Translations under genes and position numbers: made by a program
IMG/VR virus record: IMGVR_UViG_3300048861_000178
Span: 1-64,000 of that record
Source of the DNA: a virus
Lineage: Duplodnaviria; Caudoviricetes
Reading direction: 5' to 3' (one strand)
DNA: 64,000 nucleotides
Shown here: piece by piece, positions 11,410 to 58,369 of the stretch
Layout: every line of letters begins with the position of its first letter
Numbering within the stretch: position 1 is the first letter of the stretch
The notes under the pieces: generated by a model
The model's input: the letters and a program-made list of their open reading frames with translations, nothing else
Databases searched by the model: none
Told to the model about the DNA's origin: nothing

Positions 11410-11446
11410 ATATAGTTTGGGATGAGTTGATCACAGGAGAAACGAA

Positions 11447-12049: not shown

Positions 12050-12071
12050 ATCGGCCACAAGGGGAAATGAG

Positions 12072-31392: not shown

Positions 31393-31410
31393 CACGTAGC
31401 TTGCGTGTGA

Positions 31411-31450
31411 TTGCCCCCTCCTGGGTCCTCAGGGGCCTGGGAGGGGGTTA
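31411..31450 (+). terminator. hairpin after the major internal head gene
   Basis: GCCCCCTCCTGGGTCCT pairs with GGGGCCTGGGAGGGGGT. Confidence 0.55.
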
Positions 31451-31478
31451 TTGCTGCTAAGACAAGGATACAGAGAAC

Positions 31479-32843: not shown

Positions 32844-32859
32844 CAAGGAGCACGTCAAC

Positions 32860-40327: not shown

Positions 40328-40402
40328 GCAATAAAAATTGGCGCATCCTATGCGAATGTGTTTTTTCCTTCGACTCCATTAACCTTCCAGAAGGTATCGA
40401 AA

Positions 40403-40933: not shown

Positions 40934-41005
40934 GTCGTTTTGTTGGCTCAGACCTAAAACGAGAGGGGACCTTCGGGTCCCCTCTTTATTCGTTAAGGGG
41001 TAAGC

Positions 41006-41836
41006 ATGTCTTTTGTGCCAGTCGCTTCCGACCGGCTGTTGGCACTCATCAATCAGGCAAACCCGCACCTTCCGACACCGGTTACCAAGAGTAACCTGTA
41101 TCTGGGTGGCGCGCGCCTGGACCCGAGTGCTTCGGACGGCAAGTCTTCTATCGTCCCGACCACCGGGGTGTTGGGGACCGTGTATCACGGGTATCAAGAT
41201 TTCAAGTATCAGCGCATTAACCTCACGCAAGCTTACGACTATATTCCGGTCATGCGCAGCGTGGGTGCCGATACGTTGTACAACATGCTCGACATTGTCA
41301 ATGCGTATCTGGGGTTGAACTTCACACAGGACGACGTTGTTGACACCAATGTTGCGCGTGTCGATGCAGGTGCCTCAGTCAACATCAATATCATTGCCAA
41401 GCCAACCTCACTCGGTTATACCGGCTCGATGGTATTGGAATTTCAGCGGATCACGCCCGAGCTGTCTTCAGTGATTCGTAGCGTGAGTTTGGACACGCAA
41501 AACTACGACCAGATCGACCCAACGCTGAACAAGCTCGACATTGGCATGCAGATGTGGAATGTCGATATGTCGCCGTTCTTTAGCACCACTGCCTCAGCCA
41601 ATGCCTTGGCCGTCTCAAGCAACGGGACGTGGGCCAACCTGGCGTTGCTGAAGGCTGCGATTCAGAAACAGTTTGGCTACACGGACTGGCCCACGCCAGC
41701 AGCGAACACGGTGACCGATTACGCGACTTCGAAGTATCCTGGCGCGAACACCAACTTCGAACGGGTCGTGGTTCAGAAAAACGTGGTGGGTGGCACCTAC
41801 GTCGGTGCGGCGCTCTTCCACTATAACCAGAGCTAG
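41006..41836 (+). CDS. tail-fibre family A protein with tip domain
   Basis: Anchor module plus C-terminal DYATS..P.AN.NF.RVVV...FHYN (phiKZ gp131-like pattern from memory). Confidence 0.82.
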   Translation: MSFVPVASDRLLALINQANPHLPTPVTKSNLYLGGARLDPSASDGKSSIVPTTGVLGTVYHGYQDFKYQRINLTQAYDYIPVMRSVGADTLYNMLDIVNAYLGLNFTQDDVVDTNVARVDAGASVNINIIAKPTSLGYTGSMVLEFQRITPELSSVIRSVSLDTQNYDQIDPTLNKLDIGMQMWNVDMSPFFSTTASANALAVSSNGTWANLALLKAAIQKQFGYTDWPTPAANTVTDYATSKYPGANTNFERVVVQKNVVGGTYVGAALFHYNQS

Positions 41837-41844
41837 GATTAGTC

Positions 41845-43389: not shown

Positions 43390-43404
43390 TCCAAGGAGAG
43401 AGTG

Positions 43405-44277
43405 ATGACAGGCATTACGTCACAGCCGACGACTCTCTCCGGAGAGCAGCTGATTATCCTGCTCAATGAGACGTTCACTCCGAATCCGATCTTCTCGGAT
43501 AAGAACCTGATCTTTGGTACGCCGCAAGCTGCGCCCGATGGTGCAGTGGGTTACGATACCACGGTGGACGTCACAGGGGTGCCAGGCCGAGGCTATTACG
43601 GGGACGCGGTGATTCAATACACCCGTGTCCCGCTCTCCAATCTGGCAGGTCGGGTCTCGCTCGCCTCGCTGGATAACTTTACGCTGGCGAGCATTGCGAC
43701 GCTGATGAATGCGTCGTTGGGGACGTTCCTGCAAGAGGAGGATTTTGTTCCGCAGGACATCACCACACCGCCGCTGCTCGGTTCGAGCACAGTGACGTTG
43801 GTGGCAGCCGATGACTCGCTCGGGTGGAAAGGCTCAGTCGACATCACGATCACGCACGATAAGCCGCACCTGAATGTGGTGATCGCGAGTAATCGACTGA
43901 ACACGATGTTTGACGACTATAGCGCCGCCGTGGTGAACCATGTCCCGTATCGACTCAATGGTCGGGATTACCTATGGAACTACGACTTCACGTCGATGCG
44001 TGATGCGCTGGCGATTAAGTACTACGCGCTCAATCAGAACGTCGGCTACAACGGCATTGCGGACTACGCGACGCTTAGCGCAGCCTGTGCGAAAGTCGGG
44101 ATTCCTTACTTTCCAAACGCCCAGTATGGTCGTACCGGCGCAAGCGATTACGCGACCTCGCAGATTGCTGACAGCAACAAGAATTTTGATCGGGTAGTGA
44201 TTCTCGGTACGATTTGGGGCGGTGTCTTCTATGGCAGTGCCTTGTACTTTCACTACAACGTCCTCGAAAATCGTTAG
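43405..44277 (+). CDS. tail-fibre family A protein with tip domain
   Basis: GYYGDAVIQYTRVPL; DYATS...SNKNFDRVV...YFHYN. Confidence 0.82.
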   Translation: MTGITSQPTTLSGEQLIILLNETFTPNPIFSDKNLIFGTPQAAPDGAVGYDTTVDVTGVPGRGYYGDAVIQYTRVPLSNLAGRVSLASLDNFTLASIATLMNASLGTFLQEEDFVPQDITTPPLLGSSTVTLVAADDSLGWKGSVDITITHDKPHLNVVIASNRLNTMFDDYSAAVVNHVPYRLNGRDYLWNYDFTSMRDALAIKYYALNQNVGYNGIADYATLSAACAKVGIPYFPNAQYGRTGASDYATSQIADSNKNFDRVVILGTIWGGVFYGSALYFHYNVLENR

Positions 44278-44287
44278 GGCTTGAACC

Positions 44288-45259
44288 ATGTCTCTTTATC
44301 CCAAGCAGTCCATGCAGATGCTGGTTGACCTGATCAACCAAGCGAATCCGTCTCTGCCTGTACCGCTGACCACGACGAATGCGCTCTACGGGACGCCGAC
44401 CGCCGTCACCCCCACGGGTGGTAACGTTCAGAATACGTCGATCAAGGTCACCGCACAGGCTGGGACGAAATACGTGGGTAACACCACGTTGCTGTATCGT
44501 CGGTTGGACTTCGGCATTTTGTTTCGCAATCTGCCGATCGTTATTTACAAGTATTCGCCTAATGCCGGGTCGCCGTACAAGATCTCGGATCTGTTGCCCT
44601 CGATCAACGCCAAGTATGGTCTCAGTCTCACGACGGCCGACGTCGTGGATGGCAGCTTACCCACAGGTAACACCAACGCAGTGGCGGCCATCGGTCTAGC
44701 CGCCGGTACGCGCAATAGCTCGATTACGGTCACTGCGCAAACCAGCAGTCCTGGCTTCATCGGAAGCTTTACGCTTTACTGGGTCCAGGCACCGCAGGAC
44801 ATCGGTTCGATGATTTCGGTAACGAGTCTGGAAAACGCGCGCGTGTTCCCTGGCGCGCGTAACGTGGTCGACAACTCGATCTACGTGCCGGATCTGGACT
44901 TCTACTCGATTGACTGGACGAATGCGCTTAACCAGGCCGCGGCGGCGGCGAGCCAGAGTCTGGCTATAGCCATTGGTTTCTTAACTAGTTACGGCTTGGG
45001 TACTCAAACTGGCGCACCCGCGACGGTCCATAGCTCGTTGCTTGCTTCGATCAATGCAGCGATTACCACGCAGTACAACCTGACCAATCCGGTCTCGACC
45101 CCGTACAGTCTGTATGGCATCAAGTTCACGAACGTGATCCTGCCAAGCGCGACCTTGCCGGAAGCAGACAGCAAGTACTTCAACCGTGCGTTGTATATGG
45201 ATCTGCCTGCGGGAGCTTCGTGGGGTGCGGGCCGTATCATCATGCACTACAACGTTTAA
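44288..45259 (+). CDS. tail-fibre family A protein with tip domain
   Basis: LVDLINQANP, YVGNTTLLYRRLD, ends MHYNV. Confidence 0.82.
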   Translation: MSLYPKQSMQMLVDLINQANPSLPVPLTTTNALYGTPTAVTPTGGNVQNTSIKVTAQAGTKYVGNTTLLYRRLDFGILFRNLPIVIYKYSPNAGSPYKISDLLPSINAKYGLSLTTADVVDGSLPTGNTNAVAAIGLAAGTRNSSITVTAQTSSPGFIGSFTLYWVQAPQDIGSMISVTSLENARVFPGARNVVDNSIYVPDLDFYSIDWTNALNQAAAAASQSLAIAIGFLTSYGLGTQTGAPATVHSSLLASINAAITTQYNLTNPVSTPYSLYGIKFTNVILPSATLPEADSKYFNRALYMDLPAGASWGAGRIIMHYNV

Positions 45260-45268
45260 GGGTGAGAT

Positions 45269-46162
45269 ATGTCGACTTTTCAACTCCCATCCTTGACTGA
45301 TTTGCTGAACGCGATCAATGCGGCCAACGCGACGACGTTTACGGCGTCCGATCTGTCGTTCTCGAATCCGAAAGTGGTGTCGGGAACCTGGCAGGGTCTA
45401 TCAAGCGATCGCAATACCGCTGTGAAAGTGACAGCGGCTTCAGCGAATTATCAAGGCTCCCAGGTGATTCTTTACAATCGCCTGGACTTGGCCCAGCTGG
45501 CCAATCTGTCCGGCGTCACGGATTTGGCCGTGAGCAATCCGCAACACACCTGGGATATCTTGCCGCAGCTGGCTTACTACCTGGGTATTCAGTTCGTGCA
45601 GGGTGATTTGCAGAATCTGCCGATCACGCTCAATGGCGACGGCACGGGTCAGGTGCAGCTCTCGGCTGATCCGAATTCGCTCGGCTGGCAAGGTAGTGTG
45701 ATGCTCAATGTGGTGCCGGGCGGTGTATTGCTCGATGCGGCCGCGGCGACTACGCAACTGCCGGGTATTAACTATCCGGTGGCAGATGCGTCAGCACCGC
45801 CTGCGTCGGCCGTGTACGGCCCGGCCTATCTGTATCCGTACGACTTCACCTCCTGGCAGTCGACGTTCCTGTCGTACGCGCCGGGTGCGATGACGCAGAC
45901 TCAGCTCGATGCTGTGTTGGCGGCCATTCAAGCTGTGGATGTGGGTGCAGGTAAGTCGTTGTGGGTGGACACGGGTGCCAACACGACCTGGAATTTGACG
46001 GGGGCAACCATCGTCTCGAACGGCCTGAATGATGCGGTGAATAACCCAACCAATCCGGCCTACAAGTACGTGATGGCTATTCAGTTGGCGGCGAACCAGA
46101 CGACGCCTTCGGGTCTGCTGTATCTGCACTACAACGATCCGTTCGACCCGAACAACTTCTAA
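45269..46162 (+). CDS. tail-fibre family A protein with tip domain
   Basis: YQGSQVILYNRLDL, NSLGWQGSV, NPAYKYV...LYLHYN. Confidence 0.82.
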   Translation: MSTFQLPSLTDLLNAINAANATTFTASDLSFSNPKVVSGTWQGLSSDRNTAVKVTAASANYQGSQVILYNRLDLAQLANLSGVTDLAVSNPQHTWDILPQLAYYLGIQFVQGDLQNLPITLNGDGTGQVQLSADPNSLGWQGSVMLNVVPGGVLLDAAAATTQLPGINYPVADASAPPASAVYGPAYLYPYDFTSWQSTFLSYAPGAMTQTQLDAVLAAIQAVDVGAGKSLWVDTGANTTWNLTGATIVSNGLNDAVNNPTNPAYKYVMAIQLAANQTTPSGLLYLHYNDPFDPNNF

Positions 46163-46214
46163 GTCGAGAGCATAGGGGAGTGGGTCACCCCCACTCCCTG
46201 AAACGAGGTGTTGA

Positions 46215-47099
46215 ATGTACCCATTTCTTGACACGCAGTTGAACACCTTGCTCGGGTTGATTAACACGTCGAATCCCGGTCTGAAGGTGCCTCTGACGAC
46301 CGCGATGCTACGCTCGTTGGTGCCAACTGCAGTAACGCCTGGGTCGGGACAGATCCAGGACACGAGTCTTAGACTGCTCTCAGTGCCGGGTAACCTCGGC
46401 AAGTATATCGGGACGCAGACGCTGTACTACCGGCGAATTAACTTCGCCAATCTTTTCCGCAGCATGACGTTGACGCTGGATAACTATCTCGGCTCAACCA
46501 CCATGACAGCAGCGCAGTTCTGTACGGCGTTCAATACAAAGTACGGCACGGAATTGGTGCCGACGGACTTTAGCAACCCCTCCTTCACCTCTGGGACGTC
46601 CTACACGCTCACTATGGTGTCGACGTCCCTGTGTTACGAAGGGTCGTTCACCTTCAAGTGGACGCAGGGTGTGCCGTACATGAGCCAGGTCATCGCGAGC
46701 CAGGTATTGACGGGTAAGTTGTATCCGGGTGGCAACACCTTCGGCGGGGGTCGTAAGCCCCAAGCGGATGTGTTGAGCTACGCGCTGGACTGCTCGAAGA
46801 TTCGCACGCAGCTTTTGGCGCTGAGCTCGTCCTCGACGCCGACCCCGTCAAACTGGCTCACTGCAGGTAGTGCGCTGGCAGGTATTCTGGCTTTTCTGCA
46901 ACAGAGCCTGCCAAGTCTGAATCTGAGCGGGCAGGATTCGGCCACCGCGGGTGGCTTAGGCAATCTGTTGGTGTCGCGCTATACGCTGCCTTCGGCGTCA
47001 GTGCCGGGCGCGAATAGCAACAAGTTTGCGTCTGTAGTGACGATCACCGCGGTGGCGGGGTCCTGGTTTCAGGGCACCTTCTATCTGCACTTTAACTAA
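46215..47099 (+). CDS. tail-fibre family A protein with tip domain
   Basis: LLGLINTSNP, YIGTQTLYYRRIN, ends FYLHFN. Confidence 0.82.
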   Translation: MYPFLDTQLNTLLGLINTSNPGLKVPLTTAMLRSLVPTAVTPGSGQIQDTSLRLLSVPGNLGKYIGTQTLYYRRINFANLFRSMTLTLDNYLGSTTMTAAQFCTAFNTKYGTELVPTDFSNPSFTSGTSYTLTMVSTSLCYEGSFTFKWTQGVPYMSQVIASQVLTGKLYPGGNTFGGGRKPQADVLSYALDCSKIRTQLLALSSSSTPTPSNWLTAGSALAGILAFLQQSLPSLNLSGQDSATAGGLGNLLVSRYTLPSASVPGANSNKFASVVTITAVAGSWFQGTFYLHFN

Positions 47100-47111
47100 A
47101 GGGAGGTCGAA

Positions 47112-47612
47112 GTGAGTCTGTATCAAAATTCGAGCGACGACCTCGCTGCGTTAATCAGTGCTGCCGCTGGCGTGACAGTGACATCCAGTCAGTTTACAGT
47201 AGTGGCGTTAAAGCCCACTACGACCGCTGAGCAGGCTGGAGTGGCGAACGGTAAGAACACCAAGGTTCACGTGTCGATGAACGCCGGAGCACCGCTTCGG
47301 GGTGAAATGACGCTGTACTACGACCGACTCGATTTGGGCGCGTGGGCGAACTTTAGTCCAGTGTTGCTGGTGGCCGCGCCCAATAACGACGTCTCGACAG
47401 TATTGAACACGATTCGTGACCAGTACGGTTTTACACTGACCATGAACGACATCGCTGACGTCTCGACGACAGTCGGAGGCGATGGCAATACCCACGTGGC
47501 GTTGACGGCGCTCGCGAGCTCACCCGGCTACATCGGTAGCTTTGATTGTGTATTCGCGCCGCTCCCGAACATCAGCAATCTGTTCTACTCCAGTACGCTG
47601 AGTGGCTTCTAA
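47112..47612 (+). CDS. tail-fibre family A protein (anchor module only)
   Basis: KNTKV, GEMTLYYDRLDL, ends STLSGF. Confidence 0.8.
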   Translation: MSLYQNSSDDLAALISAAAGVTVTSSQFTVVALKPTTTAEQAGVANGKNTKVHVSMNAGAPLRGEMTLYYDRLDLGAWANFSPVLLVAAPNNDVSTVLNTIRDQYGFTLTMNDIADVSTTVGGDGNTHVALTALASSPGYIGSFDCVFAPLPNISNLFYSSTLSGF

Positions 47613-47626
47613 AACAAGGATGTGAG

Positions 47627-48045: not shown

Positions 48046-49752
48046 ATGACGCTTCGCGCATTAATCTCGTTTGATCATGTTCCGCTCAATACCAATTTCA
48101 CCTTGCCTGTTGGGACCACGTACGCTTCGAATACCCTGAACACTCAGTACGGTATGCCAGGTGGTGTGATGACTGGCTTAAATGCTGCGGCGGCGGCGAT
48201 TTATACGCCCACCAATGCGATCGCGCTTGGGCCCTCCCCTAATTCTGGCTATAACGCCGGATACGTCGTTTCTCTGGCTGACCTGGGGTGGTTGCAAAAC
48301 GGCGCGACCCAGGGTTGGATGGGTTTTCGCACCTATGCGTCTTCGAGCGGTTCGACGACCGCTTCAGTGGCGGGTTTTCTCACTGCGCTATCGGGATTGA
48401 CCAATTCCGGGTCCGGTATTGCCTCGGTGCTCACGGAAGCTCAGCTGGCACGACCGGGTTACGGGGCGACAGCGTTGCAATATGTCGAAGTCTTTGTCGA
48501 CATGACAGCCCTGACGTATCAGACATATGTCAACGGTATCCAGACGGCTTCCGGTTCACTGCCCTCAGGATGCCAGTATGTCGTGTTTGGGGGTACGTAC
48601 TACACGGCAGCGGGTGGCGGCATGCAGGCCTATCGGGATTTCTACTTCCTCGATGTGGATGCGACTAAGCCCAATGGTCGACTGGGTCCGATTACCAGCA
48701 CGGCGCTCGCACCGAGCGTGAGTACCAGCCAGCTGGCGAACTACGGGAACTTTTCCTTTGCCCTGAATGGCAGCGCTACGGTCTCCAATGCGCAAGCCAA
48801 GTTCGGTACTGCGTCGCTCTACCCGACCCCATCCACCAATGGCGCGGTGGTCATCACAGATGCGCCCCAGTACCGTGCGGTGACTGGCGACATGACCTAC
48901 GAATGCTGGGCCATGTGCACGAATGCGAGTCAGTCAGCGGGTTTTCTGTGTAAGGATTCCGGCGCAGCCCCATGGGCACGATTGCAGTACGTCTCAGGTG
49001 TGTGGCAGTTGCTGACTGACCAGGCCTCGGGTACGCCTGCGCTCAGCGCTACAGGTAACCCAACCGTGAATCAGTGGTTCCATCTGGCCTTGGTGCGGTA
49101 TCAAGGTACCTGGACCATTTACCAGAACGGCGTCGCAATCGGTAGCGTCGCTGGCGGCACCTTTGGTAACAATACAGCCAATCTGGTGCTCGGCAATAAT
49201 AACAATCTGTCCAGCGTGTGGACTGGCTATATTGACGAGTTCCGGGTGTCGAACATCGCACGTTACACGGCGAACTTCACTCCGTCAACGCAGCCATTTG
49301 CAACCGACGCGAACACCATGTTGTTGATGCATTTTGATTCGGTGGTCGGTGCGTCAGTCGCGGACTACAGTAACAATGAGCCGTCGGCATTTCAGACTGC
49401 TTATGGCGCTACCCCGACGATGACACCTCTGGTGCAAAACGGCGCAGACAATCAACCGATTGCGCTGAACTTCGCCCCCAGCGTGCCAGCCGGTCAGAAG
49501 GTTGTCGCGATGCAGTACAAGCTCGCGGCTCAAGTGCCGTTTGCGATGAACTTGCTCGCCTCCATGCAAGAAGGTCAGACCACCAAGACGTTGGCGACGT
49601 ATCAATTCCGTGACACGACCGCTCAGTATGCGCGTGATCTCGCCGGAATTCAGGTGACTGCACCGGACGGCAATGGCTGGACGAGTACCAATATTGCGGC
49701 GACTAACCTCGTGTTGCAACCGCAGTCGACCACAGCGGCGAATACCAACTAA
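48046..49752 (+). CDS. family B lectin-like virion protein with an internally inserted LamG domain
   Basis: LRALISFDH, GFRT, YVEV, YRDFYFLD.D...RLGPI, LamG block, APDG..W. Confidence 0.82.
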   Translation: MTLRALISFDHVPLNTNFTLPVGTTYASNTLNTQYGMPGGVMTGLNAAAAAIYTPTNAIALGPSPNSGYNAGYVVSLADLGWLQNGATQGWMGFRTYASSSGSTTASVAGFLTALSGLTNSGSGIASVLTEAQLARPGYGATALQYVEVFVDMTALTYQTYVNGIQTASGSLPSGCQYVVFGGTYYTAAGGGMQAYRDFYFLDVDATKPNGRLGPITSTALAPSVSTSQLANYGNFSFALNGSATVSNAQAKFGTASLYPTPSTNGAVVITDAPQYRAVTGDMTYECWAMCTNASQSAGFLCKDSGAAPWARLQYVSGVWQLLTDQASGTPALSATGNPTVNQWFHLALVRYQGTWTIYQNGVAIGSVAGGTFGNNTANLVLGNNNNLSSVWTGYIDEFRVSNIARYTANFTPSTQPFATDANTMLLMHFDSVVGASVADYSNNEPSAFQTAYGATPTMTPLVQNGADNQPIALNFAPSVPAGQKVVAMQYKLAAQVPFAMNLLASMQEGQTTKTLATYQFRDTTAQYARDLAGIQVTAPDGNGWTSTNIAATNLVLQPQSTTAANTN

Positions 49753-49838
49753 GCATGAGCGGGCACTTGATCTCTTCTCCTTGTGAGGAGAGGGGGTTGG
49801 GTGTCTGCTTATGCCATCGAATTACATTGGAGTAGGTT

Positions 49839-51515
49839 ATGGCAATCCATGACTTGTGGTCGTTTGATAATGCGCCAGTGGGTACGAGTTTGCTCACCGG
49901 CACGACTGACCTCACCTCAACAACGGGTCCGAGCAACGTTTACAACTACTATACGGGCAATCCCGGTTGCACGTACACCTATACCAGCAGTCCGTTTGCA
50001 GTGGATGCGAACGGCTTTGCTAACTCGACGAATAACTCGAGCGGCAACGGCAGCATGATCTGGTTTAAGCTCGCCCAAGTACTGAATTTCACGACCTCGA
50101 CGAAGTGGGCGATTGGTTTTCGGACCAAGTCCAGTCAGGCAGTAACTGGTTCGACAGCGGGTCGTGTGTTTTGTACCACGGCAGGCTGGGCGACCGCTAT
50201 ATTGCGCACTTGGATCGCCGAAGCCGACCTCGTAGCCCCGGCCAACACGGAGCTGTATGTTGAGCTCGTGGTGGATTCTTCCCTGTTGACCTATTGGCTC
50301 TATATCAACGGCAGTCTCGTGCGCCAGACCGCCTATACGTCGGGGAATTTCCCCTCAACGGGTTATGCTGCTTTTGGCACCGGTAGTACGGTGGGAACTG
50401 CCAACGCCACACGCGGTTATCGGGACTTCTACTTCCTGGATTTTGATAGCACTGACACGACGCGCTTGGGTCCGATCCGTTCCTCGATCGCTTCCCTCTC
50501 GAACATTTCGGGTTCGGAATGGACGCTCAATAGTGCGGCCGACCTGCCGACCGCTTTGAATACCGTGTTGCAAAACCCGCCGATCACCACACCGAGTGCC
50601 TCGGCTCCGGCAGACAATCAGCCGATTACAGCCACCCTCGGGACAAGCCTGGCGGCGAATGTATCCATCATTGCAGTGCAGCCCATGATCTCCTTTATTG
50701 GGGATAGCGCACTGAATACGCTTGATCTGACGCTGACACAAAATGCTCAAGCGCTGGATCTCGGTAAGCTCGCGCCGCCCGTGTCTGCTAACCAGTTTAA
50801 TCAAAAGTGGGCGATTAGTCGTAAAGCTCCCGATGGCGGGATTTGGACCCCTACCAAGCTGGGTCAGACGTCGGCGTCCTTGACACCTGCGGCTCAGCGT
50901 ACTGTTGTCTTGCTGCACATGGAGAATACTACGGACGCCGCCGTATCGCGCACGTGGACACTCAATGGCACTGCAGCTATCTCTACGGCGCAAACAAAGT
51001 TCGGTTCTTCTTCGCTCACTTCGGGCAGCTCAGGCTATCTAAGCGCCCCCGTAGATGCGACCGAGGTCTTTGGTTCAACCTTCACGTTTGAATGCTGGGC
51101 GTATCGTAACTCCGGATTTGGTGATACCAATATCCTGAGCATGTCGACGCAGAACGATTCGACGCACCAAACCGGTATCGGTCAGCAGTCGAATATGGGT
51201 CTGGCGATTTACTTGACCGATGGTAAAGCCTGGCAGTCCTTGGCACCAACCTCGGCATTTCCGCTGAATCAGTGGAATCACGTCGCAGTGGTGTATAACA
51301 ACGGAGTCTACACAGGTTACATCAACGGCGTGGCACAGGGTAGCATTACCTCGGCTTCCACCTTCGGTTTGGCGGGTGCAACCTGTACGATTGGCGGAAT
51401 CCGCTACAACAGCGTTTCGCAGTTCCCTGGCTATCTCGACGAGGTCCGACTCAGTAATGTGGCGCGCTACACCGCTAACTTTACACCCCCGACTGCGGCC
51501 TTCGTGCTGGACTAA
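49839..51515 (+). CDS. family B lectin-like virion protein with a C-terminal LamG domain
   Basis: IHDLWSFDN, YRDFYFLD...RLGPI, APDGGIWTP, then FTFECW...WNHVAVV...DEVRLSNVARY. Confidence 0.82.
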   Translation: MAIHDLWSFDNAPVGTSLLTGTTDLTSTTGPSNVYNYYTGNPGCTYTYTSSPFAVDANGFANSTNNSSGNGSMIWFKLAQVLNFTTSTKWAIGFRTKSSQAVTGSTAGRVFCTTAGWATAILRTWIAEADLVAPANTELYVELVVDSSLLTYWLYINGSLVRQTAYTSGNFPSTGYAAFGTGSTVGTANATRGYRDFYFLDFDSTDTTRLGPIRSSIASLSNISGSEWTLNSAADLPTALNTVLQNPPITTPSASAPADNQPITATLGTSLAANVSIIAVQPMISFIGDSALNTLDLTLTQNAQALDLGKLAPPVSANQFNQKWAISRKAPDGGIWTPTKLGQTSASLTPAAQRTVVLLHMENTTDAAVSRTWTLNGTAAISTAQTKFGSSSLTSGSSGYLSAPVDATEVFGSTFTFECWAYRNSGFGDTNILSMSTQNDSTHQTGIGQQSNMGLAIYLTDGKAWQSLAPTSAFPLNQWNHVAVVYNNGVYTGYINGVAQGSITSASTFGLAGATCTIGGIRYNSVSQFPGYLDEVRLSNVARYTANFTPPTAAFVLD

Positions 51516-51595
51516 AGCGCGGCTAATGATGTGTATTCTGGCGGTTCTTATTCATCGAGGACCGTCAGTGCTGGGTTATTTTAAGAGGATTGAAC

Positions 51596-52672
51596 ATGAC
51601 TTTGCGAGCCTTGTGGACGTACGATCACATTGCCAACGCATCCGCTATTACCCTGACGTCACTGGCTGCCTATACGCCTAATAACGCGTACAATCTGCTC
51701 ACGGGTAATCCCGGTACGCCGATTCTACGCGCGGGTACAGCCAACGTGGTGATCAATGCGCTGGTGGCGGGTGCAGCACCTGGCGCGTATCGGGGTGGTG
51801 GTATTGGGTTTGGTAACAGCACCTCGCAGGCCCAGGCGCTGGTGGTCGCGCTTGCGGATGTACCGCTGCTGCAGGGCGGAGTGACCAAAGCGTATATCGG
51901 TTTTCGGACCTGGAGCTCGGTCATTCCGGCGCCGGGTACTTCTTCGGTCTTTGGGGTGGCGTCTTCCGCCACGGCTGTGCCGACTGCGCTGGTGAATGAA
52001 ACCCAACTGGCGCGCGTGGTGAATGTGACGCAGTACGTGGAGGTGATGCTCGACATTGCCAATAACCAGTACTCGGCCTGGGTGGATGGGCTTAAGATTG
52101 TCGATAAGGCGGCGCTTGTCGCAGGCTTTACGTATCTGGTGTTTGGCTCCAATGCGGTGACAACGAACTCCTGTAACTTCTCGTTTCAGGATTTCTACTT
52201 TGTCGACGCCGATGCGACGCTGCCCAATACGCGACTCGGTCCGATCCAGTCGGCTTTGGCAACCATTGCTGCGGTCAGTGCGCCGAACTATACTTCCAGT
52301 GACGCAAAGACGCCGCTGGCGGACTTCACCACTGCGTATAGTGCCGCGCCTGCTGCGACGCCAAACATTACCAATGCGGCGACCAATGATCCTGTCACGG
52401 TGAACTTCACTTCACAAGCCCCTGCTGGGGCAGGCATGATTGCGGTGCAGTACAAGATGGCAGCCAGCGTCACAGCAACTGCGCAGATGTCAGCACAGCT
52501 CAAGCAGGCCTCGACCACCAAGAACTTGCCCACCTACACGTTTAGCGACCTCACGATGGACTTTGGTCGTGATTTGTCGGGCGTGCAGACGACGGACCCG
52601 AGCGGCAATGCTTGGAGCGATGCAGGACTGGCGGCCACTGCGCTGATTGTTCAGCCGGTCTCGCTCACCTAA
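51596..52672 (+). CDS. family B lectin-like virion protein
   Basis: LRALWTYDH, GFRT, YVEV, FQDFYFVD...RLGPI, DPSGNAW. Confidence 0.82.
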   Translation: MTLRALWTYDHIANASAITLTSLAAYTPNNAYNLLTGNPGTPILRAGTANVVINALVAGAAPGAYRGGGIGFGNSTSQAQALVVALADVPLLQGGVTKAYIGFRTWSSVIPAPGTSSVFGVASSATAVPTALVNETQLARVVNVTQYVEVMLDIANNQYSAWVDGLKIVDKAALVAGFTYLVFGSNAVTTNSCNFSFQDFYFVDADATLPNTRLGPIQSALATIAAVSAPNYTSSDAKTPLADFTTAYSAAPAATPNITNAATNDPVTVNFTSQAPAGAGMIAVQYKMAASVTATAQMSAQLKQASTTKNLPTYTFSDLTMDFGRDLSGVQTTDPSGNAWSDAGLAATALIVQPVSLT

Positions 52673-52755
52673 GCAGCGGCATTGAGAGCCCTGTCGCTCT
52701 CCCCAAGGGAGGGTGGCGGGGTTCTTATGTTCGTTCTATCAAGAGAGTTAAGAGA

Positions 52756-53805
52756 ATGGCTATTCGAGATTTTTGGGGCTTTGACAATATCCCCCCTTAC
52801 ACGAGCGGTGCCACGGCGCTCAACTACTTACGGCCCGATATTACGGTCTCTAACTATTACCTTAGCTACGGAACCGTGTTGAAGGGTACTGGTAGCTGGG
52901 CGAACTGGCTTGTGTGCACCGGCGGCACTAACCCGTATCCGAACACGAACTACGGGACCTACAATCCGCTCATTTCTGTCCCCTATCAGAACCTCAGCGA
53001 TTTCACCACGACGCGTAGCTTTATGGGGATGCGGTTTCAGATCAATAACAACTCATTCTCTACCCAGGTGCTGTACCTACAGAACACGGCAGGCACCAAA
53101 CAGACGCTGTTGCTCAATACCCAGCTCGCCCTGAACACCTCGCAGTACGTCGAGGTGATGATTGATCGCACTAACACGCAGATTGTGGTATGGGTCGACG
53201 GCGTGCAGGTCTCGAGCACGTTCTTTGACTTCAATGCGTTTGTGTCGGCGGATGGTAATGCGTGGCTGGTATTCGGTTGTAACACTGGTTCTGCGCTTTA
53301 CACCTGGTACATGCGTGATGCGTACTTCCTCGATGACACCCAGGATGCCACGCAATGTAATCGTCTGGGTCCGGTGGATGTGCGCGCTCAAGCGCTCGCT
53401 TCGGTAACTGCACCGAACTGGGTGTCAAGCGACAGTGCAACCGCATTGGCGGATTTGTCGAGTCCCTTTACGACGACCGCTGGCTCACTCACTGCACCGA
53501 CGCTCACGGAACCATCGACGATGGACCCGGTGCAGTTTACGCTTTCCAACGCGAACCTCATCGCAGGCGAGAGCATTCTGGGCGTGAAAGCGGATATCAC
53601 CGGACAGCGCATCGGTGGTTACGCGTACGCGCCTCAGATCTCGATGAAGTGGAATAACCAGACTGTGAACGGCAAGCAAATGAAGTATGCGACCCCGAGC
53701 ACCTGGAACTACAACCAGAATGCTTTCCTGCTGGAAAAAGCGCCTGACGGGACACCCTGGACGCCGCAGGCGGTAGCAGGCGCCGTGGCAATCCTCACCC
53801 CGTAA
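52756..53805 (+). CDS. family B lectin-like virion protein
   Basis: IRDFWGFDN, YVEV, MRDAYFLD...RLGPV, APDGTPWTP. Confidence 0.82.
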   Translation: MAIRDFWGFDNIPPYTSGATALNYLRPDITVSNYYLSYGTVLKGTGSWANWLVCTGGTNPYPNTNYGTYNPLISVPYQNLSDFTTTRSFMGMRFQINNNSFSTQVLYLQNTAGTKQTLLLNTQLALNTSQYVEVMIDRTNTQIVVWVDGVQVSSTFFDFNAFVSADGNAWLVFGCNTGSALYTWYMRDAYFLDDTQDATQCNRLGPVDVRAQALASVTAPNWVSSDSATALADLSSPFTTTAGSLTAPTLTEPSTMDPVQFTLSNANLIAGESILGVKADITGQRIGGYAYAPQISMKWNNQTVNGKQMKYATPSTWNYNQNAFLLEKAPDGTPWTPQAVAGAVAILTP

Positions 53806-53820
53806 TCCAAGGGATCGAAC

Positions 53821-54903
53821 ATGGCTCTTCACGATTTATGGCATTTTGAAAATGCCCCGGTTGGCCAGAACTTGGTGTCGACGTTGTGGTCGTCCAGTGT
53901 GGCCTATACCGGAAGCGGCGGGCTCTATAATCAGAACACTGGGTTGCCGGGTATGTTGACCTATCAGGGCACCACGGCCAATACCTGGGCTGTGTCCGCC
54001 GATGGCTTTCTGGTCAATACAGCCAATGCGTCTGGTGCAGCGGGTTCGCTCTTTATTGCGACAGCCTCGGTGATGGATTTCACCACGCCGACGCAGTACT
54101 GGTTTGGCTTTCGCACCAAGCTGGTGGCAGGCACGCCGAGCGCGACGGCGAACTTCTTGATCGTCTCCAATACAGCAGGCTATGGTACCTGGTCTTCACT
54201 CCTGAGCGAGACCCAACTGATCAATGCAGGCTTGGCGGTGATTGGGGTCGAGCATTTTGTTGAATGCTTTATCAATCGCACGGCGCTTACGTTCCAGGTA
54301 TATGTGGATGGCTTGTTGGTGAATTCCGGCTCACTAACCAGTACCACCTTTTCGAGCACTAGCTTCCTGACCTTTGGCGCGGCCAACGGATCAGCCGGTG
54401 CGAATATGGCGCGGGGCTTCCGGGACTTCTACTTCTTGGACGTGGACGCCAGCACTCCTGGACGGTTAGGTTCAATCCGAGCAAAAGCGACGACGACCGC
54501 CGCCGCCAACGGTTCGGAATGGACCCCGAATGGTGCCGCCGATCTCGTCACAGCACTCAATACAGCCAACGCCAATCCCCCGGTGGTGACGCCTTATGTG
54601 CAAGCACCTACGGATAACCAACCACTCGCGCTGACGATGGCGACTAACATCGCTGCGGCGGGCAACAAGATTATTGCCGTGCAACCGTCGCTGTCTTATC
54701 AGTCCAGCGGCGCCGGGGTGGTAAAGGTAAACGCGAGCTTGCAAGATAGCGCCAGTAACACTACAGCGCTTGGTCAGTTTGTTAATGGGGGTGGGTTGCA
54801 GCTTAATCAGCGGCTACCCTTTGCTACCATGGCGCCGGATGGGTCCAGTTGGACACCGGCTAAGATTAACCAGAGTCAGTTTGTGCTGACTCCTACCTCA
54901 TAA
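53821..54903 (+). CDS. family B lectin-like virion protein
   Basis: LHDLWHFEN, GFRTK, FRDFYFLD...RLGSI, APDGSSWTP. Confidence 0.82.
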   Translation: MALHDLWHFENAPVGQNLVSTLWSSSVAYTGSGGLYNQNTGLPGMLTYQGTTANTWAVSADGFLVNTANASGAAGSLFIATASVMDFTTPTQYWFGFRTKLVAGTPSATANFLIVSNTAGYGTWSSLLSETQLINAGLAVIGVEHFVECFINRTALTFQVYVDGLLVNSGSLTSTTFSSTSFLTFGAANGSAGANMARGFRDFYFLDVDASTPGRLGSIRAKATTTAAANGSEWTPNGAADLVTALNTANANPPVVTPYVQAPTDNQPLALTMATNIAAAGNKIIAVQPSLSYQSSGAGVVKVNASLQDSASNTTALGQFVNGGGLQLNQRLPFATMAPDGSSWTPAKINQSQFVLTPTS

Positions 54904-54913
54904 GGGGGCGTGA

Positions 54914-56542
54914 ATGACGACAACCGTTCGCTATTTTGCCCCGCTCGTCTGGCAGGGTACAACCAGTTACGCGCAAGTCCGTCAGGCCTCGCCCGTAGCG
55001 TGGTCGCAGCAAAGCGTGAGCGCCTATCTGCGTAATGTGCAAGCGGTGCAGTGGTTTCAAAGCCCGACACCGGTGAATCTGCGCAAGGTGAGTGCGCTGC
55101 AATGGGCTCAGGACGCGTCGCTGGTCAACATGCGTCGTGCCGTGGCGTTGCAGTGGACGCAAGACGTGCTCGGCTTGAAACTGCGTAACGCGCAGGCGGT
55201 GACCTGGACGAAATCGTCTACGCGCGGTGTGTTGCGTCAAGCCTCCGCGTTTACCTTGCAGAAGTCTTCCACGCAAGGGGCATTGCGGCAAATCAGTGCG
55301 TTTACCTTGCAAAAGACCACGGTAGCCACCACCAAGGGCGGTCTCACCGGTTTGTGGGCGCTGATCCAGGCAGATGCGAAACAGACTATTTTGCAGTCAC
55401 AGCTTACAGTCAGTGCCCCGGTTGCGGACACCTCGAAGCTGAACTGCAATACGTACGTGACAGTGGCGCCGACCGGTGCATTGTTGCAGCAGTACTCGGG
55501 CACCACCAAGCTCTACTACAATCGCGTCGACATCAATAACGCTTTTCTGGGCGGCACCAATAACACCTGGAAGCTCGGCACGATAGCTTCAGCCACCACC
55601 ATCCGCGCGCTGATCCCCCAGATCAACACGCAGTATGGCTTGACGCTTGATCCGACCGATGTAGTAGACGGTCCGGTTGCAGCAGGGGCGACCAAGTTGC
55701 AGCTGGTGGCCGACCCGAACAGCTACGTGTTTAATCCGGGTACCTCTTTGTACCTGATGAATGCAACGTCGCTGGCGGCGGCCGTGACGGCAGTGAACTT
55801 GGCTGGTTTTGACAATGCAGCAGGTCAAGGCCCGCTGTCTTACCCGAATGTGGTGTTGAGCGACGCACCTTATGCCTACTACCGTCTGAATGAAACCAGC
55901 GGTACGGTGGCGAAGGATAGCTCAGGCAATGCGCGCAATGGGACGTACACCGGCGCACTGACCTTGGGTAACGCCACGCTGCTCACGCATGATACTGCCA
56001 AGTACCCGCAGTTCCCTGGTTCGGCGACTGCCTATGTGGACGTAACGGCGGCAAAGAACTTCTGTGCGGGTTCGCAATGGACGTTCGAAGCCTGGGTGAA
56101 TGTGACCTCGTATTCGACCAAGGGCGGCTACACAGGTTCGGCCAGCGGTCCAGCCATGCTCACTGACGTGGGCGATACGGGCAGTACGTCACCTGCTACG
56201 GGTCTTGAGCTCTCGTTGCTCGCGCTGGGCAACACGCAGCAAGGGTATTACTACTGGCCTGCGGACAACGTTTCGAGCGCAGCCACGGGCACCCCGATGC
56301 CGGTGGTAGGAACGGCCGTGCATATCGTCTTTACCTACAACGCCGGAACGGTGAGTATGTACAAGAATGGTGCCCTGATCCAGAGCTTCACGGGCGCTAC
56401 AGCGGCGACGATTCGTTCGTTCCTGCGGATCGGTGCAGGTGCATGGGTAGGCGGTCCGATGAACGGCATGATTGGTGAGGTGGCGTTGTACACGAAGGCT
56501 CTTTCAGCAGCCCGCATTCAGGTTCACTACAACAGCAATTAA
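54914..56542 (+). CDS. tail-fibre protein: eight 17-aa repeats, family A anchor module and LamG domain
   Basis: N-terminal repeats; YSGTTKLYYNRVDI; YYRLNETSGT.A.DSSGN...WTFEAWV...EVALY..ALS. Confidence 0.85.
   Translation: MTTTVRYFAPLVWQGTTSYAQVRQASPVAWSQQSVSAYLRNVQAVQWFQSPTPVNLRKVSALQWAQDASLVNMRRAVALQWTQDVLGLKLRNAQAVTWTKSSTRGVLRQASAFTLQKSSTQGALRQISAFTLQKTTVATTKGGLTGLWALIQADAKQTILQSQLTVSAPVADTSKLNCNTYVTVAPTGALLQQYSGTTKLYYNRVDINNAFLGGTNNTWKLGTIASATTIRALIPQINTQYGLTLDPTDVVDGPVAAGATKLQLVADPNSYVFNPGTSLYLMNATSLAAAVTAVNLAGFDNAAGQGPLSYPNVVLSDAPYAYYRLNETSGTVAKDSSGNARNGTYTGALTLGNATLLTHDTAKYPQFPGSATAYVDVTAAKNFCAGSQWTFEAWVNVTSYSTKGGYTGSASGPAMLTDVGDTGSTSPATGLELSLLALGNTQQGYYYWPADNVSSAATGTPMPVVGTAVHIVFTYNAGTVSMYKNGALIQSFTGATAATIRSFLRIGAGAWVGGPMNGMIGEVALYTKALSAARIQVHYNSN
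54926..55333 (+). repeat. eight tandem 51-bp (17-aa) coding repeats
   Basis: Each unit starts [VLM]R; six have W at position 9; the last two units are similar at DNA level (GCGTTTACCTTGCA). Confidence 0.85.
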
Positions 56543-56639: not shown

Positions 56640-57182
56640 ATGGCAAAAATCAACGCATCGTTGTCGGCGTTGGACAACCTGCTCGCGCTCGTCAATGCTG
56701 CTAATACCGGCCAAACGATCACGAACACGCAAGTGACTGCAGGTGCGCCCAGCGTCAAATCCGATACGGGTGACGGTCGTAACACCACGGTGGCACTGAC
56801 GGCTGTCGGTGGCCAAGGCTACACGGGTTCGGTCTCCGTCAACTACACGCGCCGGGGTCTGAACGACTCGGTGCTCAGCCCGGTCGATAGCTACACCGCG
56901 ACCACCGGTACCACGGCAGCTGCGCTCGTGACGGCGCTCGCCGCCCAGCTCGGCCTCGTGGAGTCGGAAGTCCACCTCGAAGATCCGGCTGACCCCGGTG
57001 TGGCGCTGTCGGGCGCACAGAGCGGCAATCAGGCCACGCTCGATCTGGTGGCTAACGCAGGTTCGCTGCTGTATGTGGATGGTTCGCTGCAAGCGATCAC
57101 CATGACCTGGCAGGCTCCGCAGGTCGCGCTGTCCACGGCTGTTGCGACGACGGACCTCACGGGTTTCGACGCCGCCAGCTAA
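56640..57182 (+). CDS. tail-fibre family A protein (anchor module only)
   Basis: LLALVNAAN, RNTTV, YTGSVSVNYTRRGL, ends LSTAVATTDLTGFD; ATCCTATG at 56571 upstream. Confidence 0.82.
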   Translation: MAKINASLSALDNLLALVNAANTGQTITNTQVTAGAPSVKSDTGDGRNTTVALTAVGGQGYTGSVSVNYTRRGLNDSVLSPVDSYTATTGTTAAALVTALAAQLGLVESEVHLEDPADPGVALSGAQSGNQATLDLVANAGSLLYVDGSLQAITMTWQAPQVALSTAVATTDLTGFDAAS

Positions 57183-57199
57183 GCATTTCAGTGCTGAGG

Positions 57200-57233
57200 A
57201 AAAGCGGGGCTTCGGCTCCGCTTTTTTATGCCG
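57200..57233 (+). terminator. UUCG terminator
   Basis: AAAAGCGGGGC-TTCG-GCTCCGCTTTTTT-ATGCCG. Confidence 0.8.
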
Positions 57234-57283
57234 TCAATTTCCACATGGTCATTTTATGACCTTTCCCTATTCTGGCGACAAGT

Positions 57284-58369
57284 ATGCAAATTGATCCGAC
57301 AAAGAGCGCTATCCAGAACCTGCTCGCGCTTGTCGATGGTTCGAACCCATCAGCACCTAATTTACCCAATGAAGTCACAGTGAGTGGCATCACCACAGGA
57401 AGCTTTGCCAACGGGACTGATACGAAAGTCACTTTGACGGGCACGGGCCCGCAGGGTAATTATGCCAACTTTACCGGTAGCGTTGACGTAACGTATAAAC
57501 GTCTCACCCTGGCGACTGAAGCTGCCAGCCCGACAGGCCCAGTCTCGCTGTCGCTCGGTACCAGTAAAGACGCTGCGCTGGCGACGGTGGCCCAATACTT
57601 TGGTTTTATTCCGACGGAGATCAGTGCACCCAGTTTCACGCCACAGGGTGCAGCGGGCAACCAGACAGTGACCTTGCAGGCCAGTGGTTCCTTGATTTAC
57701 GAGGACGGTTCAACCGACATCACGATTAATTGGACGTCGCCGAAGACGGTACTGCTGACTCACTTCGATGGTGCAGTCACGGATACCTCGGTGCCGGATG
57801 TTGCTTCGGGTGGGTCGATTGCCCTCAGTGGTGGAGCAACACTCACGACCACTACCAAGGTGTTTGGTACGGCGGCCTTCCAGGGTAGTGCCAGCAATCC
57901 AGCCTCGTGCGCGAGTGCTGGAGCGAACAACAAGTACATCATGTCGGGCGACTTCACGTTCGAGTGTTTCTTCATCCCGAACGCTGCCGACCTCTCCGGC
58001 GAGAGTATCCTGTTCTCCGAAGGTACGGGTTCTTATATCGATCTCTTCCACAATACGTGGTACGTGTCGCTTGGAACCACAAATGTGCACTTGATCAATG
58101 GCGTAGCTGCGAACCTGGTCGCTGGTACGACCTACCACGTGGCGCTGACACGTCAAGGCACGACCGTGACAATCTGGGTAAACGGGGTTTCGGTTACTAC
58201 GGCCAGTTCGTCATTGCCGTTTGGTGTGTCGGGCGCAAATATGAACATTGGCAATTACAACTCTAATGGCTACGGCGTGAAGGGCGTGCTGGATGAGGCC
58301 CGAATCTCCAATGTTGCTCGCTACACGGCTGCTTTCACCCCGCCGTCTGCACCGTTCACGTTGGACTAA
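57284..58369 (+). CDS. tail-fibre family A protein with LamG domain
   Basis: LLALVDGSNP, FTGSVDVTYKRLTL; LLTHFDG...DFTFECF...YHVAL.R...DEARISNVARY. Confidence 0.85.
   Translation: MQIDPTKSAIQNLLALVDGSNPSAPNLPNEVTVSGITTGSFANGTDTKVTLTGTGPQGNYANFTGSVDVTYKRLTLATEAASPTGPVSLSLGTSKDAALATVAQYFGFIPTEISAPSFTPQGAAGNQTVTLQASGSLIYEDGSTDITINWTSPKTVLLTHFDGAVTDTSVPDVASGGSIALSGGATLTTTTKVFGTAAFQGSASNPASCASAGANNKYIMSGDFTFECFFIPNAADLSGESILFSEGTGSYIDLFHNTWYVSLGTTNVHLINGVAANLVAGTTYHVALTRQGTTVTIWVNGVSVTTASSSLPFGVSGANMNIGNYNSNGYGVKGVLDEARISNVARYTAAFTPPSAPFTLD

What the first reader, a model, noticed from the sequence alone, without database searches (positions are those of the whole stretch)
48046..56542. Candidate scaffoldin-like receptor-binding system: eight 17-aa docking repeats next to five anchor-less lectin paralogs
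Seen: gene 54914 begins with eight 17-aa-period units (VRYFAPLVWQGTTSYAQ, VRQASPVAWSQQSVSAY, LRNVQAVQWFQSPTPVN, LRKVSALQWAQDASLVN, MRRAVALQWTQDVLGLK, LRNAQAVTWTKSSTRGV, LRQASAFTLQKSSTQGA, LRQISAFTLQKTTVATT), followed by a family A anchor and a LamG. The five genes immediately upstream are mutual paralogs that lack the anchor and share a conserved C-terminal lobe (RLGPI...APDG..W...L.P). Inference: each repeat is a donor beta-strand that completes the C-terminal lobe of one family B subunit. This would load several different glycan-binding heads on one fibre, as in pilus donor-strand exchange or a cellulosome, with repeat variants setting subunit order. I am not aware of this being described for jumbo phages.
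Basis: partly seen in the sequence, partly recalled or inferred. Interest (0 to 1): 0.85.

Follow-up and report, generated by a model that had tools for sequence, protein, structure and literature searches.

The report
Peptide-repeat adaptor beside lectin-like fibre paralogs
A jumbo-phage fibre protein starts with eight real 17-residue repeats and always sits directly after a block of lectin-like paralogs; the same two-part gene module recurs in other jumbo phages and in Chi-like siphoviruses, so the repeats probably recruit those proteins, although the proposed donor-strand mechanism has no support.

Summary
Gene 54914-56542 encodes 4 residues, then eight 17-aa units (h-R-x-h-x-A/P-h-x-W/L-x-Q/K; lag-17 z about 23), then the N-terminal half of DUF7941 and a LamG domain. 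The five upstream genes are true paralogs (PHROG 2448) and lack DUF7941.

- In every relative examined, a family-B block is directly followed by the one DUF7941 protein that carries the units. The other roughly 10-19 DUF7941 paralogs never carry them.
- Paralogs:units are 5:8 or 6:8 in the FLC9 clade and 2:4 or 3:4 in ~245-kb relatives.
- In Xanthomonas jumbo phage Xoo-sp14 the ratio is 1:3, with the units on a stand-alone 69-aa protein next to a DUF7941 gene.
- In Chi-like siphoviruses it is 4:4, 4:6 or 5:7, where B homologues gp32-35 precede gp36, which starts with ~17-19-aa units.
- Units never number fewer than paralogs (Spearman 0.86, uncorrected for phylogeny).

The specific mechanism is not supported. 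A family-B protein folds as a complete two-domain monomer (pLDDT 91), the ratio is not 1:1, and near-identical units can accompany divergent paralogs.

My best reading (0.45) is a multivalent adaptor that recruits B proteins onto DUF7941 fibres. I found no publication describing this. The scan's earlier notes cover only this same stretch, with none on other DNA.

The parts
48046..49752 (+). Family B paralog 1 (568 aa): ConA-like N domain, LamG inserted at residues 264-406, C-terminal lobe at about 440-563
49839..51515 (+). Family B paralog 2 (558 aa): N domain plus C lobe (1-351), with LamG appended at 396-543
51596..52672 (+). Family B paralog 3 (358 aa from ATG 51596; the ORF list starts at TTG 51590)
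52756..53805 (+). Family B paralog 4 (349 aa from ATG 52756; the ORF list starts at TTG 52612)
53821..54903 (+). Family B paralog 5 (360 aa, P0006). Folded model: ConA-like lectin domain 1-220 plus a beta-sandwich lobe 225-359
54914..56542 (+). Unit-bearing DUF7941/LamG fibre protein (542 aa, P0001); starts 10 nt after the stop of paralog 5
54926..55333 (+). Eight tandem 17-aa units (residues 5-140)
55352..55828 (+). DUF7941 N-terminal globular module (residues 147-305), followed by its own linker motif
   Evidence: role of the module from preprint 10.64898/2026.04.21.720040
56024..56521 (+). Laminin_G_3 (ConA-like) head, residues 371-536; exchanged between relatives (20% identity in some orthologues)
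39788..47612 (+). Context: nine DUF7941 paralogs without units, upstream of the B block
56640..58369 (+). Context: two further DUF7941 paralogs without units (180 aa; 361 aa with LamG)

Best explanation
The window lies in a chimallivirus-type jumbo phage related to Burkholderia phage FLC9. P0001 is a subunit of the DUF7941 fibres, which in phage Goslar polymerise head to tail from the peripheral baseplate. Its N-terminal array of eight 17-aa units is a multivalent adaptor. The units recruit the lectin-like family-B proteins encoded just upstream, which have no DUF7941 module of their own. Roughly one B protomer binds per unit, and some units are taken by repeated copies of the same paralog. 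One fibre subunit therefore carries a bundle of ConA-like heads.

Shown: the repeat; the paralogy; the lectin-like complete fold of B; the strict gene adjacency in three lineages; the count relation; and virion presence of B homologues in phage AchV4.

Inferred: physical binding, its stoichiometry and its structural mode. If binding occurs, edge-strand augmentation or a peptide-in-groove contact is more likely than completion of an incomplete fold.
For: 1. Exclusive adjacency. In 19 related loci, each B block is directly followed by the single DUF7941 protein that has N-terminal units. None of the other DUF7941 paralogs has them. The 315-kb genome has no other unit array.
2. The constant parts of the unit-bearing protein are the units and the DUF7941 module. 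The LamG head can be missing (L013, 233 aa) or swapped: units are 57-64% identical and the module 65-83%, but the head only 20% in some orthologues.
3. Counts (paralogs:units). 5:8 or 6:8 in the FLC9 clade; two modules of 2:4 and 3:4 in L009; 2:4 in L011; 3:4 in L013, L016 and L019.
4. Fission and fusion. In Xoo-sp14 one B gene (combined B profile E 6.5e-16; PHROG 2448 E 6.7e-12) is followed by a 69-aa protein made only of about three 17-aa units, then by a DUF7941 gene.
5. Casjensviridae. Chi gp32-35 and their orthologues are B homologues (my profile 1e-10 to 1e-18; Chi gp33 is PHROG 2448 at 2e-135, the same PHROG that four of the five window B proteins match). They are always followed by gp36-type proteins that start with ~17-19-aa tandem units: Enc34, XAP3 and Stilesk 4:4, Chi 4:6, JS26 5:~7, AchV4 3:at least 5.
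6. Across 12 arrangements, Spearman is 0.86 and units are never fewer than paralogs (permutation 0.01).
7. Each unit is conserved position by position between orthologues, at the level of a folded domain.
8. B homologues AchV4_0025 and AchV4_0026 were detected in virions by LC-MS/MS (PMC7996906).
9. B has a lectin/CBM-like N domain (Z 11-14 to sialidase lectin domains, legume lectins and others).
Against: - No direct evidence of binding exists.
- The count statistics are not phylogenetically independent. There are effectively about three lineages and a few transitions, and unit counts in JS26, AchV4 and pPM_01 are approximate.
- The ratio is not fixed (1:3 to 4:4).
- A stand-alone 69-aa array in Xoo-sp14 cannot by itself tether anything to a fibre.
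- Two phages with a single B-like gene (Pseudomonas phage HRDY3 and Vibrio phage VpV262) show no recognisable unit array next to it.
- The unit profile of the window clade does not detect the Casjensviridae or Xoo-sp14 units. Homology of the arrays across lineages is therefore unproven, and the parallel rests on position and period.
- AchV4 proteomics did not list the gp36-type protein or the third B-like protein as virion components.
Confidence: 0.45

Rival explanations
1. The units form a self-contained repeat fold, such as a two-strand-per-coil beta-solenoid, a beta-ribbon or an oligomeric shaft. This fold serves as a stalk, spacer or oligomerisation element of the fibre subunit. The B genes are merely part of the same fibre gene cassette and do not bind unit by unit.
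For: - A 17-residue period with ladders of identical residues (Arg2, Ala6, Trp9, Gln11) is typical of solenoid coils.
- The low-confidence AF2 model places two short strands in most units.
- The stand-alone 69-aa array in Xoo-sp14 suggests an autonomous module.
- The paralog:unit ratio is variable.
Against: - AF2 gives pLDDT 27-41 for the region, whereas solenoids are often predicted well. The alignment had only 8 rows, however.
- This reading does not explain why only the DUF7941 paralog that follows a B block has the array, in three lineages and with different anchor domains.
- It does not explain why unit number rises with paralog number.
Confidence: 0.25
2. The array is an assembly template or chaperone-like element. 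It helps B proteins fold or oligomerise, or orders their incorporation, but it is not the final attachment site. B proteins attach elsewhere on the baseplate or fibre.
For: - The stand-alone small protein form occurs in Xoo-sp14.
- AchV4 proteomics lists two B homologues but not the gp36-type protein.
- Gene order immediately after the B genes resembles that of tail-fibre assembly factors.
Against: - In most lineages the array is fused to a structural protein, either a DUF7941 fibre module or the gp36 body.
- P0006 is predicted to fold confidently on its own.
Confidence: 0.1
3. The units mimic the DUF7941 linker, which docks on the N-terminal module of the next protomer. P0001 would then be a branching hub that nucleates up to eight DUF7941 filaments.
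For: - Goslar work reports that a disordered linker of one protomer docks on the N-terminal module of another.
- The window has 12 DUF7941 paralogs around P0001.
- Units 7 and 8 faintly resemble the linker motif, by my reading.
Against: - The linker motif (h..hh....L.G[FL]) lacks the invariant Arg and the Trp of the units.
- This reading does not explain the adjacency to B blocks.
- It does not explain the same arrangement in Casjensviridae, which have no DUF7941.
Confidence: 0.06
4. One reading: each unit is a donor strand that completes an incomplete C-terminal beta-sandwich of one specific B paralog, with unit variants fixing the subunit order.
For: - The units are strand-like, and each is individually conserved between orthologues.
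- The C lobe is the shared part of all B paralogs.
Against: - The C lobe is predicted complete and confident without a partner.
- Paralog and unit numbers differ (5:8, 6:8, 1:3).
- A duplicated paralog arose without a new unit.
- Near-identical units accompany divergent paralogs in Stilesk.
Confidence: 0.05

Closest known systems
DUF7941 'fibre cloud' of Chimalliviridae (Goslar gp22/gp23; PhiKZ gp126/gp127), preprint 10.64898/2026.04.21.720040, also Sci Adv 2026 (PMC13742148)
   Same: P0001 and 12 further genes of this genome carry the DUF7941 N-terminal module. Several have carbohydrate-binding heads (LamG), as in Goslar gp86, gp92 and gp161. The array lies among late structural genes.
   Different: In the passages I read, that work describes no N-terminal tandem peptide array and no separate anchor-less lectin-like family. 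Goslar and PhiKZ gave no family-B match by sequence or in the top fold hits.
Chi-like siphovirus (Casjensviridae) genes gp32-gp35 plus gp36 (PHROG 2448 plus PHROG 7226), function unknown
   Same: The lectin-like paralogs are homologous. They are directly followed by a protein whose N-terminus is a tandem array of ~17-19-aa units. Unit number is at least the paralog number.
   Different: The rest of gp36 is unrelated to DUF7941 and LamG. The unit sequences differ (h..h.E[AV][LM] against hR...Ah.W) and are not detected by the window-clade profile. The host phage is a siphovirus with a single long fibre made by another protein (YSD1_29; PMC12264135).
Branched multi-RBP complexes built on an adaptor protein (Ackermannviridae CBA120 TSP1-4; phage G7C gp66/gp63.1; Klebsiella phage anchor-branch systems). 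From my own knowledge, not checked here
   Same: One virion-anchored protein carries several different receptor-binding proteins that lack their own virion anchor.
   Different: Those adaptors use folded docking domains on trimeric proteins, not an array of 17-aa peptide units. No such domain is detected here (Pfam).
Chaperone-usher pilus donor-strand exchange
   Same: A short strand-like peptide on one subunit is proposed to bind a beta-sandwich of another.
   Different: The defining incomplete Ig fold is not seen. There are many donor units on one chain instead of one per subunit, and there is no chaperone or usher.
Cellulosome scaffoldin (cohesin-dockerin)
   Same: A multivalent scaffold loads several different carbohydrate-active or carbohydrate-binding subunits.
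   Different: Cohesins are ~150-aa domains and dockerins ~70-aa Ca-binding modules. Here the repeated element is a 17-aa peptide, and B proteins have no dockerin-like match.

Membership tests
DUF7941 (PF25613) fibre proteins | Match to the Pfam model above its gathering score | tested here: met
   P0001 scores 69.1 bits against a cut-off of 27, residues 147-305, model positions 12-176 only (N-terminal module plus linker; no C-terminal tip domain)
DUF7941 (PF25613) fibre proteins | Head-to-tail oligomerisation into filaments attached to the peripheral baseplate | not testable with these tools
   Known only from Goslar gp22 electron microscopy and AlphaFold models.
Laminin_G_3 / ConA-like lectin superfamily | Pfam match; jelly-roll fold | tested here: met
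   PF13385 E 1.8e-20 in P0001, and 2.9e-18 and 2.2e-21 in B1 and B2. The N domain of the P0006 model matches lectin and CBM domains at Z 11-14.
PHROG 2448 (Chi gp33-type virion proteins) | Profile match over both domains | tested here: met
   P0006 3.9e-13 (145-354), P0005 6.5e-7, P0002 1.2e-8, P0004 2.6e-4. Chi gp33 2.4e-135. My B profile hits Chi gp33 and gp34 at about 1e-16. P0003 is placed by 39% identity to P0006.
Chaperone-usher donor-strand exchange | Acceptor subunit has an incomplete Ig-like fold lacking its last strand | tested here: not met
   The AF2 monomer of P0006 has pLDDT 91 and pTM 0.89, with the C lobe at 80-96 and nine strands. This is a prediction only, and self-complementation in the model cannot be excluded.
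Chaperone-usher donor-strand exchange | One donor strand per subunit with strictly alternating hydrophobic residues | tested here: not met
   Eight units lie on one chain. Hydrophobic positions are 1, 4, 7 and 9, with a kink-prone A/P/G at position 6.
Cellulosome cohesin-dockerin | Cohesin domains on the scaffold and dockerin modules on the cargo | tested here: not met
   No Pfam cohesin or dockerin match in P0001 or the B proteins. The units are only 17 aa long.
Beta-solenoid or triple beta-spiral fibre repeats | Repeats fold as stacked coils, alone or as a trimer | tested here: inconclusive
   The AF2 monomer with an 8-row alignment gives pLDDT 27-41 over the units. There is no PDB sequence match. 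Atlas look-alikes score 0.77 or less and TM is 0.36 or less. The trimer was not tested.

The most novel reading that the evidence does not exclude
A phage 'scaffoldin': a tandem array of 17-residue docking peptides, portable between unrelated virion anchors (fused to DUF7941 in jumbo phages, fused to gp36 in Chi-like siphoviruses, or free-standing in Xoo-sp14). It loads a defined bundle of lectin-like PHROG-2448 proteins, one protomer per unit, onto host-recognition fibres. Array length would set how many heads a fibre carries.
Probability: 0.33. Interest if true: 0.85.

Novelty: new variant of a known kind. Interest (0 to 1): 0.64.

Why it matters
How jumbo phages mount many different receptor-binding heads is an open question. 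DUF7941 fibres were recognised only in 2026, and their peripheral baseplate is unresolved. In Chi-like flagellotropic phages, the role of gp32-gp36 is not described in anything I could find.

A conserved two-part module (lectin-like paralog block plus peptide-unit array) gives a concrete hypothesis for both groups, and it is cheap to test. If the units are docking sites, array length and unit identity become handles for predicting, and in laboratory phage-host pairs for studying, how many and which heads a virion displays. It would also add a peptide-array scaffold to the known ways of building branched receptor-binding complexes.

Tried and rejected
1. Complex prediction of P0006 (43-row alignment) with the unit array (8-row alignment) gave score 0.00, 'no answer', and controls were not run. 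This counts neither for nor against binding.
2. The AF2 monomer of full-length P0001 with an 8-row alignment had mean pLDDT 37. Even the LamG part was poor, so it is unusable for the fold of the units.
3. Megablast of the region against phage records gave no match.
4. TRF on the DNA found no tandem repeat.
5. PDB sequence searches with a DUF7941 paralog, P0006, the unit profile, Chi gp33, Chi gp36 and the B profile gave nothing significant.
6. An exhaustive profile search with the unit array found only four real clusters, all close relatives. The weak hits were unrelated tandem repeats.
7. The ESM Atlas look-up of the array gave no usable lead.
8. The unit profile found nothing in Casjensviridae or Xoo-sp14 arrays, so I do not claim homology of the arrays across lineages.
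9. I considered that the conserved B N-terminal strand (M-x-h-x-x-h-W-x-F-D/E) is related to the units, for example 'YAFD' in some B N-termini against 'GYAFE' units in L009 and L013. The spacing does not match and no test was available, so this was dropped as a claim.
10. I considered flagellotropism as a link, since Chi is flagellotropic and so is Burkholderia jumbo phage S13. S13 is a Chiangmaivirus described as genetically distinct from FLC9, and no B homologue was seen there. This was not pursued.
11. The promoter and terminator scan gave nothing beyond chance, apart from one long hairpin.
12. They share 29 of 51 nt.
Full report
**What the window is.** The window is the first 64 kb of a 315-kb virus record. 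It carries phiKZ-type internal head proteins at 29-34 kb and a head-tail joining protein at 35.9 kb. There are 12 DUF7941 (PF25613) genes between 39.8 and 58.4 kb, and one more elsewhere in the genome. The nearest named relative is Burkholderia phage FLC9 (321 kb). Its gp310 is 64.5% identical to the protein of gene 54914, and its gp311-gp316 correspond to the upstream genes. A 2026 study of phage Goslar shows that DUF7941 is specific to chimalliviruses. In that phage DUF7941 proteins are very abundant in virions, and gp22 forms filaments in negative stain. AlphaFold models have the linker and C-terminal domain of one protomer docking on the N-terminal module of the next. PhiKZ gp126 and gp127 sit at the outer peripheral baseplate. 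Several DUF7941 proteins carry carbohydrate-binding domains.

**The observation.**
- The period is highly significant. The BLOSUM62 self-score at lag 17 is 229, against -25 +/- 11 for the best lag of shuffled sequences.
- The consensus is h-R-x-h-x-A/P-h-x-W/L-x-Q/K, with Arg2 invariant.
- At DNA level the units are only 16-33/51 identical and TRF sees nothing, so the array is ancient rather than a recent expansion.
- The units are followed by the N-terminal half of DUF7941 (147-305) and a LamG domain (371-536).
- The five upstream genes are mutual paralogs without DUF7941.
- Their conserved features are the N-terminal strand, FGFR, YVEV..D, RDFYFLD.D, RLGPI and APDG..W.
- Two of the five carry an extra LamG, inserted in one and appended in the other.
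- Genes 3 and 4 most likely start at ATG 51596 and ATG 52756.

**Fold of family B.** With a 43-row alignment, AF2 gives a confident single-chain model of P0006 (pLDDT 91, pTM 0.89). Residues 1-220 form a ConA-like lectin or CBM jelly roll (Z 11-14 to sialidase lectin domains, legume lectins, GH131 and alginate lyases). Residues 225-359 form a nine-strand beta lobe with pLDDT 80-96. Nothing suggests a missing strand. In the viral structure library, the whole two-domain architecture matches proteins of Chi-like siphoviruses and other phages at TM 0.6-0.7. By sequence, four of the five B proteins match PHROG 2448, whose core is Chi gp33 (2.4e-135).

**Distribution of the units.** An exhaustive profile search of 1.8 billion representatives found only four real clusters, all FLC9-clade orthologues. 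Nine orthologues keep eight units without a single indel, and each unit is conserved in its own right. One variant has nine units (L007). The unit region is 57-64% identical between orthologues and the DUF7941 module 65-83%. The LamG head drops to 20% in some, which indicates head swapping. More distant ~245-260-kb phages have a four-unit version with a period of 16-17.

**The key comparative result.** I annotated all fetched loci with profiles for family B and for the DUF7941 N-terminal module, and counted units before that module.
- In every locus the B block is followed immediately by a DUF7941 protein with units. No other DUF7941 paralog has them.
- Paralogs:units are 5:8 in the window, L002, L004 and L005, and 6:8 in FLC9 and L008.
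- L009 has two separate modules, 2:4 and 3:4.
- L011 is 2:4. L013, L016 and L019 are 3:4.
- A tree of the B N-terminal domains shows five conserved orthologue groups in the eight-unit clade. The sixth gene of FLC9 and L008 is a duplicate of the B2 type.
- In L013 the unit-bearing protein is only 233 aa, with units plus the DUF7941 module and no LamG. The constant partners of the B block are therefore the units and the module.

**Outside this clade.**
- Following the fold hits, I found that Serratia phage JS26 (Casjensviridae) has five B-like paralogs followed by a 707-aa protein with N-terminal tandem units.
- The same holds for Chi (gp32-35, then gp36), Enc34, XAP3, Stilesk, pPM_01 and AchV4. 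Counts are 4:4 for Enc34, XAP3 and Stilesk (17-aa units), 4:6 for Chi, 5:~7 for JS26, about 3:3 for pPM_01 and 3:at least 5 for AchV4.
- In Xanthomonas jumbo phage Xoo-sp14, a single B gene is followed by a 69-aa protein made of about three 17-aa units, then by a DUF7941 gene. This is a split form of P0001.
- Across 12 arrangements, Spearman is 0.86 and units never number fewer than paralogs (permutation 0.01).

There are caveats. Lineages are few and not independent, and some unit counts are approximate. The window-clade unit profile does not detect the other arrays. Two phages with one B-like gene (HRDY3 and VpV262) show no array.

**Other facts.**
- AchV4 B homologues 0025 and 0026 were found in virions by LC-MS/MS (PMC7996906).
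- The long fibre of Chi and YSD1 is made by another protein (YSD1_29; PMC12264135).
- I found no description of gp32-gp36 function and no solved structure.

**Interpretation.**
- The exclusive adjacency recurs with three different anchor contexts: fused to DUF7941, fused to gp36, or free next to DUF7941.
- Unit number also scales with paralog number.
- Together these make a functional coupling of the unit array and the B proteins the best reading. The most economical mechanism is that the array is a multivalent adaptor recruiting anchor-less lectin-like proteins to the fibre (confidence 0.45).
B is predicted as a complete fold, the ratio is not 1:1, a paralog duplicated without a new unit, and Stilesk has near-identical units with divergent paralogs.
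- The main rival is a self-folding repeat stalk (0.25). My models cannot exclude it, because the fold of the units is undetermined.
- Lesser rivals are an assembly-template role (0.10), a hub for DUF7941 filaments (0.06) and the strict donor-strand model (0.05).

**Novelty.** The DUF7941 fibres and LamG heads are known. The unit array, its linkage to PHROG-2448 paralog blocks, and the recurrence of this module from Chi-like siphoviruses to jumbo phages are, as far as the searched literature and PDB show, undescribed. I file it as a new variant of adaptor-based multi-RBP systems. If the peptide-array docking is confirmed, it would be a new kind of scaffold.

Noticed in passing
window 47112-47974: A DUF7941 paralog is reduced to the N-terminal module (166 aa). 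It is followed by a small separate ORF with no Pfam hit here. The same gene pair is conserved in all relatives, where the small ORF (111-122 aa) shows a DUF7941 hit (weak in L009 and L013, unmarked in L011). This looks like a stable split gene rather than decay.
   Followed up: partly
L001 16001-19231 (FLC9 gp310) and L008 10001-13240: Orthologues of P0001 in FLC9 and one metagenomic phage are about 1076 aa. They carry an extra Gly-rich region and a second LamG-like domain after the first. In other relatives the LamG head is replaced (20% identity), while the units and the DUF7941 module stay conserved.
   Followed up: partly
L001 9185-12655 (FLC9 gp314): One family-B paralog in FLC9 is 1156 aa, with three LamG-type domains separated by short conserved linker modules that resemble the DUF7941 linker region.
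   Followed up: no
L007 4472-6112: A variant of the unit-bearing protein has nine units instead of eight, with extra copies resembling units 2 and 4/5. The contig is too short to count its B genes fully.
   Followed up: partly
L028 10647-10856 (Xanthomonas phage Xoo-sp14): A 69-aa ORF consists almost only of about three 17-aa units. It lies between a PHROG-2448 gene and a DUF7941 gene, and is annotated as hypothetical.
   Followed up: partly
window 52683-52727: A long GC-rich hairpin (20 pairs) followed by a T-rich tail lies in the 83-nt gap between family-B genes 3 and 4. It may be an internal terminator or attenuator within the block.
   Followed up: no
L027 (Pseudomonas phage HRDY3, 313 kb) 9596-12550; L022 (VpV262) 31888-32967: Single PHROG-2448-like genes occur here without a recognisable tandem-unit array in the next gene. 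These are exceptions to the module rule, or the arrays have diverged beyond recognition.
   Followed up: partly
window 29110-34227: Three adjacent phiKZ_IP (PF12699) internal head protein paralogs identify the phage as chimallivirus-like.
   Followed up: no
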